64,000 bases of DNA from Heptranchias perlo (taxonomy: Eukaryota), in assembly GCF_035084215.1 (NCBI RefSeq), contig NC_090326.1, forward strand, positions 48,050,001 through 48,114,000. Direction: 5' to 3'. The translations under genes and the position numbers were made by a program. This document shows positions 926 to 41,162 of this stretch, one piece after another (the stretch's first letter is position 1; the number at the start of each line of letters is the position of its first letter). The notes beneath the pieces were generated by a model, which was given only the letters and a program-made list of their open reading frames with translations, was not told the origin of the DNA and did no database searches.

Positions 926-2257
926 TTAAAAAAAGGTCTGTGGCATGATGATGCACAGGTATAGGCTATGTAGTCCACTGCATTATTTTGTAAAATACTT
1001 TTCTTTTGCATCTCTTTACTCTCTCATCCTTTGTCTTTCAGCTAAGTGTGCAGAACAATTTGAGCTAAACCTCCATTGCCACCAATTCCTCTCCACAAAT
1101 GAAGGTGTGCTGCAGTGAGAAGAAACAGTTCATTTCCTGTGATGGAGCACTCTGCTGTTGTAACACCCCCCCCCCCCCCCCCCACCACCAAATCATCTCA
1201 AACCAATTGCTGGGTTGGAAAGTTAATATTCTCTCAACAGCTACACCACCAAATGATTTTGAAAAACATGCCAAAAATAAATATTTATATACAAATTTTA
1301 AAATAGCAATAGCATGCTGAAATTCAATTATGAAGGACAGAATCAGTAATATCCTACACAATGATTAATTTTAAACTGAAAAAACTCAATTTGCAAGTAG
1401 ACTGCATCAAATATGAGCAAATATCAAAAATTCCACTGGTGTTTGATCAAAGGGAATTTCTCAAAAGGGTATCAATAAACTTAATCTTTGCCACTAGGTG
1501 GTGCCACAACTTCAATGTCAAAATGGATTATTACTGGGAGAATTGCACATAAGTGCCACTGTTCCATAGTGTGGTAGGATACTGATTCACATCCATCATT
1601 CCTACATTGAGTTAATGACCGTGACTATCATTGCAGATGCTGAACAGAAACGAAGCATTTCCCCACAGGGCTAGAAAATACAATGGCCTCCACCACTACT
1701 CAGGACTTCCTAATGTTAGCTCAAGAGCAGTTCAGACCAGTACCACATTGTTACAAAAACCTAAAGAATGTAAAACTTGAAGGAAGGACAGAGGAAATAG
1801 ACATATGTTGACGATGCTGGACGACATTGTGGTCTATGGGTGGTGCAAGCAGCTTCTCCACATCTCAGTTACAATACTGTTTATTTCCTCATAGAATACT
1901 GAGATATAGAATAAGTTTCCACAAGGGAGTCAAATCAGGTTGCAGTCAACTTTACAAGTACATGAATCACAACATGGGATTCTGTAATCTGCAGCAATTA
2001 AATGACTGCAATTTTAGAATGAGGAAAAAGAACGAATTGAAATTATTTAATTAGTTAAAATTACACTCCCTTCCCCTCATTGGTACTAATTTTTCCAGTG
2101 GCATTAGAAACCAACTCACAGCTTGCTGAAAAAAAGAAACAAATCTTTGTAGCCAGGATCAGTTCTTATCAGAAACCCCAATCATTTGTCCATATATTGC
2201 AAGGCAAGTGCCAGTGAAGCACTGACTTTCTTTTCTAAATCTTTTCTCACTCTACTT

Positions 2258-2310
2258 AAAATAAAATTGCTGGACTATAACTTGGTGTTGTAAAATTGTT
2301 TACAATTGTC
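2258..2310 (+). mobile_element. Short Penelope-like 3' fragment
   Basis: aaataaaattgctggactataacttggtgttgtaaaattgtttacaattgtc is nearly identical to 36448-36499. Confidence 0.7.
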
Positions 2311-8949: not shown

Positions 8950-9500
8950 TGTTGCCATCATGCTCTCCCCTCTGCCAGCTCCCAAACCTATCATTTACCC
9001 ATCATAACTTTTCCCATAGTCCAATCATCTCAGCTTTGAGCTTTTGTGGTTTTTTTCCCAGCGGGGACCTATTTGATCAGCTTCAGCTATACGGTTACAC
9101 ATGCGTCACTATCATGCTACTACTGCACTCAAGTCACTCCTCACTAATCTCTCCTGGCACAGCATATTCCAAAAAACATCCAATTTCTGCTTCAGTGCCT
9201 TTACCAGGGTCCATTTCCTAGCCCCATAAAGAATTGCCAGTTGCACCCTAGCCTTATACAATCTTTACATCCAATAATGCATGTCTTCTCTGGAAAGGAT
9301 TAAATACTTTCAGCCTGAACAATGCATTCTCTTCACCTCCTCTTTGTATGCCCAGCCAAATGGGATGCAATTTCCCAGATATACATACCTATTTATCACT
9401 TCCACCTCCTTACCATTAATATTCATTTTTCTTCAGCCTCCCTTATGCTTTTCTTCATGCTATGGATATAATGACTGCACTTGGCAAGTTGATATAAAAT
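8950..9500 (-). mobile_element. Fossil RTE-clade LINE fragment
   Basis: Minus-strand translation NINGKEVEVINRYVYLG...EEVKR and YKARVQLAILYGARKWTLVKALKQKLDVF match RTE ORF C-terminal motifs; contains indels. Confidence 0.75.
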
Positions 9501-11559
9501 CCTGGTCTACAACTGAAGGGCATTCCTCTTCCATCTCACCCAATCAACAATTAACCCAAGTTATACCAACCACAGAATGCCAGATTGCCAAATAATTTCC
9601 CATTAATTTAAAAGTTCTCAACTCCGTGCCAACATTCTTCTACGTTTTTCCTGAACCTTGGAGCTATAGTTCAAGCTTAGCACTGGTTCAACCCCCAAAA
9701 TCTCCAATCCTCTAACTGGTAAGCAGTATGTAATGGTAGCTGGTGAGGAAATGGAGGGAAAAAAAATCTAATCTGAGAAGCTCCACATTGAAAACTATCC
9801 AAGCTAGGTTTTGCTGACACAAGTACCAATTTCAAAAATAGAGATGCTGGGTAGAGCTTGCAGTATATAAAAAGAAAATCAAATTTATAATTATTTGAAT
9901 TCAATATTAGGGCTATCCATAACCATTTACACAATACAAATCATACTTTTGGGGTTGAAATGGGAAGTTAATGTTCTATGTACATTCTAAAATAGCTTTA
10001 GAGTAGACTTTTTTTTGAGGGGACATGGGGTTCAACAGGGAGACAGAGGTCACAGGACTTTAAAGGGTGACAAACCACAGCTCCACCCTGTAGCCCTCAA
10101 GCCAAAATGTAGCAAGTGCGGAGGAGCAAGTTTTTATTTCATTCCAGAGTAGAGACTGAAGTTTAGCTATTATACTACAATATTAGGTAGTATTTTCCAC
10201 TGCCTTTACAACAGTTTTTTTGGCAGTAATGGGGCAGGCATCGGCAGAAAATCGGTTTAGGAATCAGCTGAAGCAGATCCACGCCCATTTCTTTGCCAGT
10301 CAGAATTTCTAGTGTCATTTCCACTGGAGGCCAGAAGTGCCTGCTTAAATATGGGTGGGTGCATTTAAGTGAGGTGGCAACGAGTAATTATGTGTAACAC
10401 TTTCCGTCATTATTGGCAACACTGGATGCTTGGAATTCCAGCATTCAAATGGAATCCAGTGTTGCCAAGGGAGACAGAACAGCAAACAATTTAAACTGAG
10501 AAGGCAGGAGCATTAATCAAGAGTGGCAGTTCCACAGTTAGTAGATTTTGCCACTTCAATGATGGCAGGAATATTAAAACACTCAGCTGCCTGCTCCTTT
10601 AACCTGCTATAGGCATTTGTCTCCTGCAGCACTGGCCATTTCCTTCTACCACCAGCAGTCATCTCCAGAACACAGGCAGGAATGATGCAGAGAGCTGTCA
10701 AACTTAGGCAAATGAATCAGACACCTGGCAATTCACCAGGGCCAGCAATAGGTCAGTCAGAAAACACTAAACTCACCCCCGACCACAGCTTCAGCAACAG
10801 TGCTGCCAGAGGAAAGTCTCAAGTTAAAGTTTTAGGAATACAGCAGTAAATAAGTAATTAATGTGCACAGCTTTAATTCAGAGGGTCAATAAAGGAACAG
10901 TTAAGTGCATGTGTGTGTTTAAGTTAAGAGGGAAGTAGTATTTCCAAAATAAAATTAGTCAAATCCAGACAAGCTTTTTTTTTTGGGGGGGTGGGGGGCA
11001 GGGGGCAGACGGACGGACTTTTAAAAAAAAAATCTCTACTTGTTAGGAGTTTTAGATTTCTTCCAGTCCACAAGACTCACCATTTCACACCAGCAAAATT
11101 CAGCAGGCAGGCTCATCCAAGATTAGGAACTTGAAGAATTCAACTTTATAAGGAATAACTACAATATGTACTCTTTCCTGTCCTGGAGTGGCAAGGTGCC
11201 CAAGGCAGGACATTTCAGTATTAGATGGGCAATAGGAGTCACTCATTGGGTGTTGTAGTTCATGTCAACCGATCAGCTCTCTGCTGACTGTAGAGCCCTA
11301 AAATAGCAGGTCTCTCCAAGGGAAGGAAATACTTCAGCTGTTAAATATGATTACTCAATTTTTTAAAAAAATCTTGGGGTGGGGGGTGGGGGGTGGGGGG
11401 AGGGGGTGCAGTGAAGGTGAAAGAGGCAAGTACTGAAGTATTCAATACAAAAATGCTGGATAATAATCATGGAGATATGCAAGGCATCCATGCAGAACCT
11501 AGAGTTAAGAGTTCGCCTTAAAAGAAAAGAAATTTGGTCAAGCAAAATTTCACACCCAC

Positions 11560-35023: not shown

Positions 35024-36290
35024 CTGTACGAAACACAGTAGAATAGCGGTTTAGAATCACGCAATAATCAAGGGAGAGGACTTGTCATGCACGATTTCAA
35101 CCCAACACAACTCAAAAACATAAGATTCTTAACTAGGGAATGGTGACATTTATGTTAACTGGTAGTTTCCATTACAAGCCCAAAGTCTGCTTGGTTTCTA
35201 ATATGCACAACCAGATTTACCAGTTAAGAACTGCTTGAATTTATAAGCATTATTCAGTACCCATTTTTCTTCCCCAATATACAATCTGCAATATAATTTC
35301 ACAATCCTTCAGGGGCCAAGTCCAGGAAGAATCAAACCAGCTCAACAGGGAACGTCATCAAACTTAGACACTTAACCAATACAGTTTCTTTTTGGCAGGG
35401 GTGATCAGGCCAAAAAAGCCTTTTATGGTTTGATTCTGAAGGTCGTGTCTTTGTGGACAAGCTGCTTTTTTCACATGGCAGAGAAAAATGCTTTACCAAA
35501 GAATAAACAGTGGCAAGTAAGATTCATCTTGGAAGATAGACTTCTGCTAGAAACAGCCAGAATAGTTTGAACAGAATTTAAATTGCTATGAACCACAAAA
35601 AAAAAATCCTTCTCTCATCCTATACCAATTTTGGAAAAAGCACTCCCTCCTACAATACCATTGTAATATTTGTATTTTCCATATTAGTCATCCTTTTAGC
35701 AACCTGTCAATCTCTGCTATAAACTGGTTGCTACAGGAAGGTATGTTAAACACGTAGGTCTTCCTGGCATCGTGATCCTCACGTGTACAATGCATAGTAC
35801 TTTTTATTAAAATTGCAGTTGCAGGATACTTTGAATCCCTTCTCAGACTTTATCTGGAGCATTTTGGTTGACAAAAGAACCCCATTTGCATCATTAAAAA
35901 ACTGAGAAATATGTCAAATTGCTTGTATCAGAGAGAGGGAGAAAAATAAAAGAAAGAGACACACAGACAAAAACAAACAATGAGAAAGAACAGAAAGACA
36001 ACTGCAAGTGGGACTGAAAACAGTTGGCAGGACATGCTGTTTGTCGCTTGGAGACAGGTAGGAAAAAAAAATTATCCTACTAGGGTGAATGATCTCTCTC
36101 GTACATCCTCCAGTAGTGATATGAAAGAGAGAGAGCACGAGGCCCAGGCCCACTTGATCAAGTGAGTTTGCTATGCCAAGCTAAGTCAGATATTATGTAA
36201 TGAATAATTTTCTGAACCTTGTTCAAGACATCAAACATAACCAGCAGAGTGCCCTTTGAATAATTATAGTGTTTCTCTACTTCCCGTGAT

Positions 36291-36530
36291 GGTGTTGTAA
36301 AATTGTTTACAATTTAAGTTATAGTCCAACAATTTTATTTGAAATTCACAAGCTTTCGGAGGCTTCCTCCTTCCTCAGGTGAATGTTGTGGAATTTCCAC
36401 AACATTCACCTGAGGAAGGAGGAAGCCTCCGAAAGCTTGTGAATTTCAAATAAAATTGTTGGACTATAACTTGGTATTATAAAATTGTTTACAATTGTCA
36501 ACCCCAGTCCATCACCGGCATCTCCACATC
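36291..36530. mobile_element. Penelope-like inverted terminal-repeat structure; perfect 157-bp palindrome at 36316-36472
   Basis: 78-bp perfect arms around a 1-nt centre, a hammerhead core, a PLE-type 3' tail, and a candidate TSD tcccgtgat/tcctgtgat. Confidence 0.85.
36404..36444 (+). ncRNA. Minimal type-I hammerhead ribozyme motif (mirror copy on the - strand at 36344-36384)
   Basis: attcac-CTGAGGA-a-GGAGG aag CCTCC-GAAA-gc-TT-gtgaat: 6-bp stem I, 5-bp stem II, vestigial palindromic stem III. Confidence 0.75.
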
Positions 36531-37009
36531 CTGTGATAAACAGTGAGGACTACATTCTAAAATCTATTTAGCTCATTTTTAATTACAATATAAAAGGTGG
36601 ATTGCTGACAACAAAAGTTTTGTACAATGAACCTAATTTTTTTTTTTAAATACACTACTAGCATCAAATGTAGTGAAATCTAACCAGTTATGGGGAGGAT
36701 AAAAAGTAAACCTCCTATTAGTATAGTATAAAACCACTTTAACTAGGAATTCAGGGTGGCACGCAAGGACTATCAATTAAGCGAGGCTATTCAGTGAACC
36801 AATGCCTGAATCATTGACCTGTTACATCTCAGACTCTCAGATCTGGGCATCTGCCACCATTAGAATGAATACAGAGTTAGGATCTGGCCAAGATCCAGTT
36901 TCTTCCACCTCCAAAAAAGGAAGGATCCCACACTCCAAAGCATGGCAAACAACCGAATGGCACAAGACTCTTCTAAGCATCAATGAATATTAGTTCTGCT
37001 TTGGCTCCA

Positions 37010-37160
37010 ACTATAAGAGCACAAGCTTCTCGTTACTATGCTTAGTTGAGAATTTGTGTCTCTTCCAGAGATGAGGACTAATATATAGTCTTCCTTTTAA
37101 TTGTAAAGAGCTGTTTGGGGAGTAAGTTGAAGAACTGGAGAACTGTGAGCAGGAACTTAT
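37010..37160 (+). mobile_element. Fossil DIRS-like ORF1 (gag) fragment
   Basis: Homologous in inverted orientation to ~40525-40675; peptide LPEMRTNI..PFNCKELFGE. Confidence 0.6.
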
Positions 37161-37261
37161 GAAAATTGAGAATAAACCATAATCCTTGAAAGGTGGCGAG
37201 ATTCGATCCACTGGCACAGCTGTTTAGGCAGACATGAGAAACTTTTGACAATCCAATTGGG

Positions 37262-39800
37262 AACATAGGAATAGGACTAGGCCATTCAGTCCTGCGAGTC
37301 TCTTCCACCGTTCCAGCAGATCGTGGCTGATCTGTATCTGAATACCCTAGCCTAACAAAAAAAAAAAATCTATCAATCTCAGTTTTGAAATTTTCAATTG
37401 ACCTAGCCTCAACAGCTTTTTTTTTTAAGGGGTGGGGGACAGGGAAAAAAAAGTGTTCCAGATTTCCACTACCATTTGTGTGAAGTGCTTTCTGACATCA
37501 CCCCTGAACGGCCTAGCTCTAATTTTAAGGTTACATCCTCCCCCATCAGAGGAAATAGTCTCTCTCCATCTACCCTATCAAATCCTTTAATCATCTTTAA
37601 CACTTCAATCAGATCACCCCTTAATCTTCTGTATTCAAGGGACTACAAGCCTAGTCTGTGTAAACTGTCTTCATAATTTAATCCTTTTAGCCAGAGTATC
37701 ATTCTGGTGAATCTGCTCAGCTAATATATCCTTCCTGAGGTGTGGTGCCCAGAACTGAATGCAGTTCTCATGATGGGGGTCTAACCAGAGCTCTGTATAG
37801 CTGTAACAAACTTCCACCCCTCGAGATAAAGGCCAACATTCTATTAGCCTTTTAAATTATTTTTTTTGTACCTCTCACTAGCTTTTAGTGATTTCTGTAC
37901 TTGGACTCCTAAATCTCTGCTCATCCACAGTTCCTAGTTTCTCACCAATTAGAAAATACTCTGATCTATCTTTATGTCCAAAGTGGATGACCTCACACTT
38001 TCCCACACTGAACTCAGTCTGCCACAGTTTTGCCATTCATTTAATCAATCAATGTCCCTCTGCAACTTTCTGCTCCCATCTACATTATTTAGTGTGCCAC
38101 CTAACTTAGTGTCATCAGCAAACTTAGATATACGGCTCTCTATTCCTTCATCCACGTCATTTCTAAAATGTAGTGAAAAGCCGCAACCCCAGTAGATCCC
38201 TAGGTGACACCGCTAGTCACATTCTGCCAATTTGAGCACACCCATTATCCCTACGCTCTGCCTTCTACCTCCGAACCAATTCCCTATCCAAGCCAATAGA
38301 TTGCCTCCAATTCCATGCGTTCTCATTTTTATTAACAATCTCTTGTGGAATCTTATTGAATGCCATCTGGAAGTCCATATAAATAACATCCATAGACACT
38401 CCCTTATCTACCACGTTAGTTACCTCAAAAAATTCAACTAGGTTCGTTAGACATGACTTGCCCGTTACAAATCCATGCTGGCTCTCTCTGATCAGCTCAT
38501 TTTCATCCAAATGCTCAGTCACTCTCCCTAATAGATTCTAGTAACTTCCCCACAACTGACATTAGACTAATAGGCCTATAGTTTCCTAGTGCATCTCACT
38601 TACGCTTCTTAAACAGTGGAGTGACATGTCAATTTTCCAATCCAAGGGGACAATTCCTGAATCGAGTGGGTCTTGGAAGATCATGCCTTACCGCATCAAC
38701 AATTTCCTCACCTACCTCTTAATATCCTGGAGTGGAAACCATCAGGTCCTGGAGATTTGTCTATCTACAATCTCATTTAAAAAAAAGGAACTAAAGTTTG
38801 TATTGAATCAAGTTAGTTCCTCCTTGATTTATTTTTAGTTTTCTTTGTTTCTGATATTTTATCCTCATATTCTACTGAAGACTGATACAAAGTAGCTATT
38901 TAGTAAGTCTGTCATTTCCTGATTTCCAATTACAGTATCACCTGCTTGTCATTAAGGGGCCTACATTGCTCTTAGCCACCCTGTTTCTCTTAATATATTT
39001 GTAAAAACCTCTGCCTTTTACAAGCCTTTTCTTTTAGTTTTATACTATCTCACACTTGCCTTGTTAACTGAGGTTGTTTAATTAGACAAATAGAGTTCTT
39101 GCTCTTTAGGGGTATGTTCAGGGCTTGTATTCTACCAAATACTTTTTTGAACACCTCCCAATGTTCATCCGTAATTTTATCTGTTAATAGTTCCGCCCAG
39201 TCTGTTGTGGTCAATTCCTGCCTCATCCCTCCAAAGTCAGCCTTACCTAAATTTAAAATCTTGGTTCATGACTTACCCTCCCCCCCCCTACACACCCCCA
39301 AATCTAATATCAAATTCTATTATATTATAAGAACATAAGAAATAGGAGCAGGAGTAGGCCAATCGGCCCTTCGAGCCTGCTCCGCCATTTAATAAGATCA
39401 TGGCTGATTATGGTCACTGTTAGCTAGGTGTTCCCTTGCCATTAGATTGACTAATTCAGGCTCATTACTTAATCTAAGATCGCCTGTTTTCCTGTTGGTT
39501 CAAGAAGATTTTGTTCCAGAAAACTGTCCCGAACACAAGAAATTTGCTGTCTTTATGACTCGAGCTGTTCTGCTTTCCCCAGTCTATGTGAAAATTGAAG
39601 TCTCCCATTATAACTACTCCGTTTTTGCAACAAACTTCTCTAATCACGTTTATGTATCCTGCAACTTTATTGCTGCTATCTGGTAGTCTATAAATGACTC
39701 CCACCAAAGGCTTGCATCCTTTTTTATTCCTCAATTGTACCCATAGCATTTTTACTGCCTGCTCAGCCTTACTGATATCCCCTCTTTCTAATGCTGTGAT
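37262..39800 (-). mobile_element. Decayed CR1 LINE (EN to 3'UTR) containing an ~80-bp CR1 3'-end insert at 39327-39410
   Basis: WVQLRNKKG..MGDFN, SQHGF..SCLTNLVEFF and a 3' tail near 37262. Confidence 0.9.
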
Positions 39801-39814
39801 AGTGGCCCTTAGAC

Positions 39815-40680
39815 ACTAATAGATGTGCATGTGCTACAAACACCAATACATTCTAACAATGGAAAGACATTTTGTGAACACCTGGGAGGCCAAAAGGCCA
39901 TGGAAAAGGACCTGGTATTCATAACTTTTATGGGGAACGGTGAACTTCAAATATTCTGTGACAAAGCCAAATGGCAATGTGGAAGTACACATCGTTCATC
40001 ACACAAAGCACAACCCTTGAACTTTTCAGACGTCCATTTAATTGCCAGAGGTCAAGGATAGGGAAGAACCTCCCTCTCTGTTTATCTCCTCCTCCTTACG
40101 CAATTTGCTGGCGACTACAAAGTAACAAGAATAGAATCTGCTCCATTCCCAATTAACTAGAACCATTAATCTAGATAATGAAGCTCAGCATCTTTTTATC
40201 TCTATCAGAATGGATTTCTGATCAAGGCTCCATAGGTGATCTGAATGCACAATTCCTGTGAAACTCAATGTACAATGAAACCTTTTGATGGCTTCCCTGA
40301 TCAAGCACTTCAGATGCTTGAGTCATAAAAAGGTTTAATTTTATATTTAGCTATTAACTGCCAAGAGTCTCCAACCTTGTAGGGCTCTATCTTCGGGAAC
40401 CCTGGACTGTGTTACAGTCCCAGAAAGGATCAAAGAGTTATTTGCTCTGTGTTGGCCTGCAGATGGGCCACCATGTCCACAGGAATTCAATATGAGCCAT
40501 ACAAGGGATATTAATGAAGGTGTACTGATCCTGCTCATAGTTCTCCAATTCTTTAATTTGCTCACCAAACAGCTCTTCATAATCAAAAGGACATCAGCAG
40601 TATATTAGTTCTCATGTCTGGAAGAGACAGAAATTCTCAACCCAGCTTGGTGACAAGGAGCCTGTGCTCTTATACCAGGT
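39815..40680 (-). mobile_element. Fossil DIRS-type (tyrosine-recombinase) retrotransposon: gag end + RT
   Basis: Minus-strand motifs in DIRS order with indels: FDYEELFGE, RFYSCYFVV (40113-40140), PILDL..LN, DVYFHIAI, YEYQVLFHGL..QVFTKCL. Confidence 0.8.
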
Positions 40681-41162
40681 CACCTACTGCTGCAGTAAAG
40701 TAATGTCAATCCTCAAACAGCAGGGAGCTGTCATTATCAAGAATAGAAGAACTGCCTCAATTCAAAATTACTGCCCTTTCCCCCTTCTAGGGAATCACCT
40801 TGAACTAGGAACTTAAATGTAGAGATGGATTTTAATCTAGCTCACCTAGTACCCAAAGAACTAAGAGGCTAGATGAGCAGAGGTTTTGTAAAATTTAATG
40901 AAAATCCAGAATCATTGAGTAATGTTGGTCAAGCATTACTACACAACAGAAACTCCTCACATATTCAAATATCTAGCAGGACAGAAATTAAAATGTTACC
41001 ACGCATTAATTCTTCCAATTTTATGCAAGTTAAAATTTATGATGTGAACAATAAGAACATGATACTTTATGAACAGTGGGCAGTTGTCCGTGTATCTTAT
41101 TTCTTCAATTCTTCTTGCCCCATCTCCCTACAAATTTGAAATTTTAATCAATAAAAACTTAC

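What the first reader, a model, noticed from the sequence alone, without database searches (positions are those of the whole stretch)
36282..36537. Perfect 157-bp palindrome encoding a hammerhead ribozyme on both strands, inside a ZCCHC2 intron
Seen: 78-bp perfect arms (36316-36393 / 36395-36472) and an intact CUGAGGA/GAAA core with stems I and II. Stem III is reduced to self-complementary AAGCUU, with a predicted cut after 36438. There is also a 24-bp direct repeat (36291-36314 / 36473-36496) and a candidate 9-bp TSD. Established: Penelope-like elements carry minimal hammerheads that work as dimers and form inverted pseudo-LTRs. Inference: a tiny non-autonomous retrozyme-like insertion. In pre-mRNA it would give long dsRNA (Dicer/ADAR/MDA5 substrate) that sequesters the ribozyme. 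The arms are identical while the neighbouring repeats show mismatches, hinting at arm-to-arm conversion or very recent origin.
Basis: partly seen in the sequence, partly recalled or inferred. Interest (0 to 1): 0.7.

Follow-up and report, generated by a model that had tools for sequence, protein, structure and literature searches.

The report
Penelope retrotransposon mirror-image stub in shark
The palindrome in this shark ZCCHC2 intron is real, but it is an ordinary stub of a very abundant Penelope-like jumping gene: two head-to-head copies of the element's ribozyme-bearing end, with the ribozyme predicted to be locked shut in the hairpin.

Summary
The palindrome (78-bp perfect arms), a minimal type I hammerhead motif on each strand and the ZCCHC2 intron 4 location are confirmed. 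It is not a retrozyme. The arm is the end (pseudo-LTR) of an autonomous RT + GIY-YIG Penelope-like element: 12,412 exact copies of the hammerhead core and 56,569 of the 3' end lie in this genome. Of 60 consecutive loci, 29 are short head-to-head palindromes like this one, and 35 of 36 inverted loci carry the ~35-bp 'tail' on one arm only. This is the published PLE layout. Perfect arms need no conversion: 10 of 29 such palindromes have a perfect run of 78 bp or more, and arms mutate as fast as the unpaired tail. The '24-bp direct repeat' is a rare 25-bp micro-inversion (3 loci genome-wide by one exact pattern); allowing for it, the target duplication is 12 bp, not 9. Only 110 copies begin at the predicted cut site, against 44,140 that read through it. 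Copy 5' ends instead cluster just upstream of the hammerhead, a lead on how PLEs integrate. This scan has reported the same kind of stub before, in this genome and others.

The parts
36282..36290 (+). Left target-site duplication, first 9 bp; its last 3 bp were carried into the micro-inversion
   Evidence: with the 3 flipped bases it matches the right copy over 12 bp with 1 mismatch (CpG to TpG)
36291..36315 (.).
   Evidence: its reverse complement continues the family sequence into the arm; same 25-bp flip at 2 other loci (L135, L136)
36316..36393 (-). Left arm: inverted, 5'-truncated, tail-less pLTR copy of the Penelope-like element
36344..36384 (-). Minimal type I hammerhead motif on the ZCCHC2 pre-mRNA strand; predicted cut after 36350; transcribed after its own complement
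36394..36394 (.). 1-nt spacer at the head-to-head junction; 67 loci join at this same place with 0-9 nt spacers
36395..36472 (+). Right arm: 5'-truncated pLTR copy that starts at the family's main 5'-end hot spot
36404..36444 (+). Minimal type I hammerhead motif (stem I 6 bp, CUGAGGA, extra A, stem II 5 bp, GAAA-GC-UU); predicted cut after 36438
36473..36496 (+). Element 3' segment up to the first of the two family 3' ends; two private G-to-A changes at 36476 and 36479
36497..36530 (+). About 35-bp PLE 'tail', on this arm only; in full-length copies it runs straight into the ORF start codon
36529..36540 (+). Right target-site duplication (12 bp; the first 2 bp are shared with the element end)
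35024..41162 (-). Host ZCCHC2-like gene, intron 4 (about 6.1 kb, GT-AG); the insertion is about 1.25 kb from the acceptor

Best explanation
This is a short, 5'-truncated insertion of an abundant endonuclease-bearing Penelope-like retrotransposon of a shark, laid down as two head-to-head copies of the element's hammerhead-bearing end, likely built at the moment of insertion and predicted to be inert because read-through RNA would fold into a hairpin that traps both ribozymes. Shown: identity of the arm with the pLTR of an RT + GIY-YIG element, one-sided tail, 12-bp TSD, copy numbers, and family-wide architecture. Inferred: the endonuclease makes staggered nicks about 12 bp apart, and each nick primes a cDNA that starts inside the RNA at one of two sites about 35 nt apart (the two ends of the tail). 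Both cDNAs stop just 5' of the hammerhead, most likely at the RNA's 5' end (a start site in the pLTR) or at a structural stall, and they are joined head to head. A later or concurrent 25-bp micro-inversion scrambled the left end. The hammerhead is a passenger and was not used to define the copy's ends.
For: Own-genome search: 59 matches from the 40 of 298 candidates scored, many at 100% over the 79-bp arm. Exact counts are 12,412 for the 35-nt core (control 0), 56,569 for the 34-nt 3' end, and 44,140 for one subfamily's post-core 32-mer. Upstream of the arm in long copies lies an ORF with Pfam RVT_1 (E 2e-10), YIDD, a CX4CxxC linker, YIGET, RxxxH and EHF; the ORF stops 259 bp before the core. 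A full-length pLTR-ORF-pLTR copy with an inverted pLTR exists (L084). Among 60 consecutive loci: 29 short inverted, 7 long inverted, 11 short solo, 12 long solo, 1 rearranged. The tail is on exactly one arm in 35 of 36 (p = 1e-9). A TSD-like match of 11-17 bp was found in 29 of 36. The layout matches PMC3846280 and PMC8557442 (passages). Opposite-strand min-HHR pairs and the extra base after A9 are in PMC4209133. Two internal RT start sites that define the tail, and cleavage being dispensable, are in PMC11167929. Neither arm is consistently the longer (10 tailed, 12 tail-less, 11 ties, 2 excluded), and 0 of 36 pairs mix a short with a long arm, against 12.4 expected if arms were independent. 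44 of 95 3'-selected copies start 117-142 nt from the tail end.
Against: At this locus alone, 0/78 arm mismatches against 2/24 or 3/36 next door is borderline (Fisher p 0.054 and 0.030). The order of events is not shown: fold-back self-priming, proposed in PMC3846280, also gives arms that share variants (190 of 199 polymorphic columns agree). No RNA 5'-end data were available, so 'start site' against 'stall' is open. My Pfam scan did not call the GIY-YIG domain; it rests on motifs and on homologues that carry PF01541 (accession meaning recalled). No tree was built, so the clade is assigned by the linker motif only. The palindrome centre is not bridged by the short-read contigs.
Confidence: 0.9

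Rival explanations
1. Same element, but the second arm arises by fold-back: one cDNA runs to the template end, primes on itself and copies itself back, and the endonuclease resolves the intermediate, leaving the tail on one side.
For: Arms share subfamily variants (190 of 199, against 119 expected for random pairs). Spacers are mostly 0-9 nt. Self-priming is proposed in PMC3846280 and EN-mediated resolution of the tail in PMC8557442.
Against: A fixed order predicts that one arm type always reaches further 5'; observed 10 against 12. Both arms end at the same two hot spots as solo copies. Nine discordant columns exceed the roughly 2 expected from later mutation.
Confidence: 0.3
2. A non-autonomous retrozyme-like or MITE-like unit that moves as a whole palindrome through a self-cleaved, possibly circular RNA.
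For: Short, non-coding, has hammerheads, and occurs in thousands of similar copies. PLE pLTRs are reported as the source of animal retrozymes (bioRxiv 10.64898/2026.07.22.740005).
Against: Retrozymes are head-to-tail tandem repeats; no pLTR-sized tandem array turned up in the 60 loci. Central junctions differ from locus to locus. Arm lengths form a continuum up to the full ORF. Copy ends do not fall at the cut site.
Confidence: 0.04
3. The arms are kept identical by arm-to-arm conversion or hairpin-templated repair, possibly because the dsRNA has a role in ZCCHC2 regulation.
For: 0/78 mismatches beside 2/24 and 1/12 at this locus (p 0.03-0.05).
Against: Family-wide, one-arm changes occur at 17 per 1,585 paired sites (0.54% per arm) against 4 per 945 tail sites (0.42%), Fisher p = 0.80, with only 2 shared private changes. 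10 of 29 short palindromes have 78 or more perfect bp. These arms carry no private variant at all. The chance of 0 mismatches at the family rate is 0.24.
Confidence: 0.04
4. Assembly artefact (fold-back read).
For: No contig in the DNA runs bridges the centre.
Against: Both outer junctions, including the flipped segment, are in short-read contigs. The arms differ outside the palindrome (tail, flip, two G-to-A changes), and a TSD flanks the whole. The same centre occurs at 67 loci.
Confidence: 0.02

Closest known systems
EN+ Penelope-like element insertions with inverted pLTR, optional tail and TSD (Pen2a_Av and relatives, PMC3846280; general scheme PMC8557442)
   Same: Direct plus inverted 5'-truncated pLTR head to head, a 30-40-bp tail on one end, a short TSD, hammerhead in the pLTR, single RT + C-terminal GIY-YIG ORF.
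   Different: Here both arms are cut down to about 100-137 bp with no ORF, and this short form is about half of the sampled loci; the TSD is about 12 bp (8-10 bp in the rotifer examples); copy number is in the tens of thousands.
Minimal type I hammerheads (min-HHR) of metazoan PLEs (PMC4209133)
   Same: No stem III loop, palindromic 15.2-16.2 (G-C), an extra nucleotide between A9 and G10.1, G10.1-C11.1 pair, opposite-strand pairs, predicted need for a dimer.
   Different: Shark copies are not among the examples in the parts read; this family is far more uniform (12,412 identical cores) than the variable sets described there.
Poseidon_Ac of the green anole (PMC11167929)
   Same: Two 3' end sites about a tail's length apart near the pLTR-ORF junction; hammerhead cleavage not needed for insertion.
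   Different: In Poseidon_Ac the ORF starts inside the hammerhead and the tail is inside the ORF; here the hammerhead and tail lie wholly upstream of the ATG, and the protein has the Neptune/Nematis zinc-finger linker.
Animal non-LTR retrozymes (bioRxiv 10.64898/2026.07.22.740005)
   Same: Type I hammerhead, pLTR-related, non-coding.
   Different: Retrozymes are head-to-tail tandem arrays; this is a head-to-head pair with a TSD, made by truncation of an autonomous element.

Membership tests
EN+ Penelope-like element | Single ORF with RT and C-terminal GIY-YIG endonuclease linked to this end sequence | tested here: met
   Not in the window copy, but in long copies of the same sequence: RVT_1 E 2e-10, YIDD, YIGET, RxxxH, EHF; ORF stop 259 bp upstream of the core. 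GIY-YIG by motif, not by my Pfam scan.
EN+ Penelope-like element | pLTRs in partial tandem and an inverted 5'-truncated copy at the 5' end | tested here: met
   L084 has inverted copy + pLTR + ORF + pLTR; 36 of 60 loci are inverted
EN+ Penelope-like element | 30-40-bp tail, usually at one end only | tested here: met
   36497-36530 here; one-sided in 35 of 36
EN+ Penelope-like element | Short target-site duplication | tested here: met
   12 bp, 1 mismatch, once the micro-inversion is allowed for; 29 of 36 sampled loci show 11-17-bp matches
Neptune clade | CX2-5CxxC zinc-finger linker between RT and EN (shared with Nematis) | tested here: met
   CX4CxxC at residue 432 of the L032 ORF piece; definition from PMC8557442
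Neptune clade | RT phylogeny groups with Neptune reference elements | not tested
   No named reference set was on hand; no tree built
Minimal type I hammerhead ribozyme | CUGANGA and GAAA core, stems I and II, UH cut site, palindromic stem III | tested here: met
   Across 34 variants 89.8% of cells pair, with wobble and compensatory changes; rows were picked by a core pattern, so core invariance is by construction
Minimal type I hammerhead ribozyme | Self-cleavage (as a dimer or with protein help) | not testable with these tools
   Needs an assay. The predicted double-hammerhead (-22.9) is less stable than an alternative dimer (-31.7 kcal/mol)
Rfam hammerhead families | Covariance-model match | tested here: not met
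   None at E <= 5 in 35500-37500 or at E <= 10 on solo copy L057
Non-LTR retrozyme | Head-to-tail tandem repeats with a hammerhead in each unit | tested here: not met
   Head-to-head pair here; no pLTR-sized tandem array among the 60 loci classified
Non-LTR retrozyme | Abundant small circular or linear RNAs with ends at the cut site | not testable with these tools
   Only contigs of guessed RNA runs were available

The most novel reading that the evidence does not exclude
The tens of thousands of near-identical stubs are a fossil record of Penelope integration: both target nicks prime on the same RNA at two fixed internal sites (one per arm), and both cDNAs run off a transcript 5' end that sits at the base of the hammerhead's stem I, so the hammerhead is a leader structure that sets copy length without cutting. 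The recurrent 25-bp flip, with the same breakpoints at three unrelated loci and spanning the element-target boundary, marks a cleavage-and-rejoin step of that reaction.
Probability: 0.3. Interest if true: 0.5.

Novelty: new member of a known kind. Interest (0 to 1): 0.16.

Why it matters
The locus itself matters little: it is one of an estimated 5,000 or more similar palindromes. The family is useful as a data set. How PLEs make inverted pLTRs and one-sided tails, and what their hammerheads do, are open questions in the papers read. A young family with more than 50,000 copies allows those models to be tested by counting. If transcribed in introns, the palindromes would also put a sizeable load of perfect 80-130-bp dsRNA on shark cells (untested).

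Tried and rejected
Rfam scans gave only generic hairpin miRNA models below their gathering scores, and no hammerhead. Expression: no RNA holder is listed. Contigs of four runs were laid on the locus and four on a full-length copy; they are collapsed repeat contigs that cannot show strand, starts, levels, editing or an intron, so nothing is concluded from them. The protein atlas gave no answer for the short exon. Cleavage-defined 5' ends: 110 copies start at the predicted cut site, 153 start 2 nt further 3' (39 of the first 100 are a sequence variant), and 32 start 3 nt upstream, against 44,140 intact. The roughly 3-fold step over the upstream control is a weak hint for occasional cleavage, but 22 of the first 100 cut-site hits are explained by the antisense arm joining through stem I homology, and the total is 0.25%. 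Arm-to-arm conversion was tested and rejected. An apparent A/G difference between arms in the first hits was a bias of the query and vanished in the unbiased sample. A cap-derived extra G at the junctions was considered; it cannot be told from templated sequence. The 5'-end calls were redone with subfamily references. L065 was dropped from the inverted class as a rearranged copy. Paper searches for a shark PLE ribozyme (penelope + shark + ribozyme, 2 listings, neither evidently on this topic; 5 listings) showed no description of this family. Repbase/Dfam and supplements were not seen and may well hold it.

Full report
Observation. The arms 36316-36393 and 36395-36472 are exact reverse complements around one base. 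A minimal type I hammerhead motif sits in each arm: 6-bp stem I, CUGAGGA, one extra A, a 5-bp stem II closed by G-C, GAAA, then GC-UU, with the predicted cut after 36438 on + and after 36350 on -. Only the four bases AGCU can form the dimeric stem III; pairing all six of AAGCUU would tie up two core bases (own knowledge of the hammerhead core). Rfam has no model that matches the motif. The host gene is ZCCHC2-like: a large exon next to the window is 99% identical to a protein so named from the sevengill shark Heptranchias perlo. Its exons map across the window on the minus strand, and the insertion lies in intron 4 (41162-35024), about 1.25 kb from the acceptor.

What it is. The arm is a high-copy repeat in the 3.25-Gb own genome. 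Exact counts: 12,412 for the 35-nt hammerhead core with 0 for the reversed control, 56,569 for the 34-nt 3' end, and 67 loci with the same head-to-head junction and a 0-9-nt spacer. In long copies the arm is the end of an ORF with Pfam RVT_1, YIDD, a CX4CxxC linker and GIY-YIG-type motifs, stopping 259 bp before the core. Its closest proteins are unnamed shark proteins at 93%, then other sharks and turtles. L084 is a natural full-length unit: inverted copy, pLTR, ORF starting at the ATG right after the tail, second pLTR. This is an endonuclease-bearing Penelope-like element with the Neptune/Nematis linker; no tree was built.

The family's architecture. I took the first 71 of the 12,412 core hits in genome order, which fall in 60 loci on contig C1, with about 3.5 kb either side. 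29 are short head-to-head palindromes, 7 long inverted pairs, 11 short solos, 12 long solos and 1 rearranged (the script's 31 short inverted includes the window and the rearranged L065). Extrapolated, that is about 5,000 short palindromes for this core alone. 3' ends fall at two sites about 35 bp apart, and 35 of 36 inverted loci have the longer end (the tail) on exactly one arm. 29 of 36 show an 11-17-bp TSD-like match, microhomology included. The window copy fits: tail on the right (36497-36530), none on the left. This is the layout described for PLEs in PMC3846280 and PMC8557442 (passages seen). PMC4209133 (parts 1-2 of 4 read) reports such minimal hammerheads in fish PLEs, pairs on opposite strands 100-700 bp apart, the extra base after A9, and low activity even as dimers. 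PMC11167929 (parts 1-2 of 4 read) shows two internal RT start sites that define the tail, and that cleavage is not needed for insertion. The retrozyme preprint (part 1 and passages) defines retrozymes as tandem repeats. PMC2377424 (passages) places the Penelope promoter and start site inside the element.

The direct repeat and the TSD. On the left, the 25 bases 36291-36315 are flipped in place: their reverse complement continues the family sequence into the arm, and supplies the three bases that extend the 9-bp duplication to 12 bp with one CpG-type mismatch. An exact pattern finds this flip at only 3 loci in the genome. At the other two the flipped piece is also 25 bp, also includes target bases, and also hides a 13-15-bp TSD. 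The cause is unexplained; the segment is itself a small hairpin.

Are the arms too perfect? At this locus 0/78 beside 2/24 or 3/36 is borderline (p 0.054 and 0.030). Family-wide it is not special. Outside the selected core, CpG and polymorphic columns, arms differ at 17 of 1,585 paired sites, with 2 shared private changes; the unpaired tail differs from the majority at 4 of 945 sites (Fisher p 0.80). 10 of 29 short palindromes have a perfect run of 78 bp or more, and the window's arms have no private variant. Youth explains the identity; conversion is not needed.

Does the ribozyme act? Structure is conserved across 34 variants (89.8% of cells paired, above all 500 shuffles, with compensatory changes in stem II; rows chosen by core pattern and related by descent), so the motif is probably selected in active source elements. 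In this copy any read-through transcript makes the antisense arm first. The hairpin is -139.5 kcal/mol against -11.9 for the hammerhead fold, and the double-hammerhead (-22.9) loses to another dimer (-31.7). Copies rarely begin at the cut site: 110 against 44,140 that read through. The neighbouring positions give 153 and 32, so a small contribution of cleaved templates is not excluded.

How it was likely made. In 95 copies chosen by their 3' end alone (the first 100 hits; 101 matches in the fetched loci, 95 after removing duplicated junctions), 44 start 117-142 nt from the tail end, just 5' of the core; 11 are shorter, 9 reach 143-200 nt and 31 are longer. Peaks lie at 137 and 126, both at a pyrimidine-purine step and both at the base of a stem I helix; the window's arms start at the first. 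The arms of a pair share subfamily variants (190 of 199) and are both short or both long (0 of 36 mixed, 12.4 expected), and neither arm type is consistently the longer (10, 12, 11 ties). The simplest reading is two cDNAs primed at the two target nicks on the same RNA, at two internal start sites, each ending at the RNA's 5' end or at a stall. Fold-back self-priming remains possible. These steps are inferred.

Verdict. A real but ordinary PLE stub, a new member of a known kind. Searches found no paper on this shark family, but repeat databases and supplements were not seen. Earlier notes of this scan describe the same kind of stub in this genome and in other sharks; none covers this place. The remaining value is in the family as a test set for the PLE integration mechanism.

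Noticed in passing
window 36291-36315; L135 (G000:C3:116004111-116004142); L136 (G000:C31:41484684-41484715): The same 25-bp micro-inversion across the element-target boundary occurs at three unrelated loci, each hiding a 12-15-bp TSD; cause unexplained.
   Followed up: yes
window 36476 and 36479: Two private G-to-A changes 3 bp apart; on the opposite (cDNA) strand both are C-to-T in a WRC context, as AID/APOBEC-type deamination would give (motif recalled; could be chance).
   Followed up: no
L015, L016, L089, L091 central junctions: Short tandem re-copies of the last 5-10 bases at the 5' junctions, as if the RT slipped back at a template end.
   Followed up: no
window 2256-2310: A second, 55-bp fragment of the same family's 3' end (93% identical).
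   Followed up: no
window 10413-10468: A 15-bp perfect inverted repeat with a 26-nt spacer.
   Followed up: no
L067, L074, L093, L099, L117, L121: Older, diverged subfamilies of the same element with variant hammerheads (N7 = C or U; stem II G-C changed to A-U or C-G) and the same palindromic layout.
   Followed up: partly
P0037: A shark gene model named epn2 isoform X2 contains a piece 94% identical to the element's ORF: exonisation or an annotation error.
   Followed up: no
L038 about 9285-9662 (-), upstream of ZCCHC2 exon 1: ORF fragments that look like a Harbinger-type transposase (label recalled, not searched).
   Followed up: no
L161, L163, L164, L165, L169: Identical insertion junctions repeated 2-3 times within a few kb: local tandem duplications that carry the element.
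   Followed up: no
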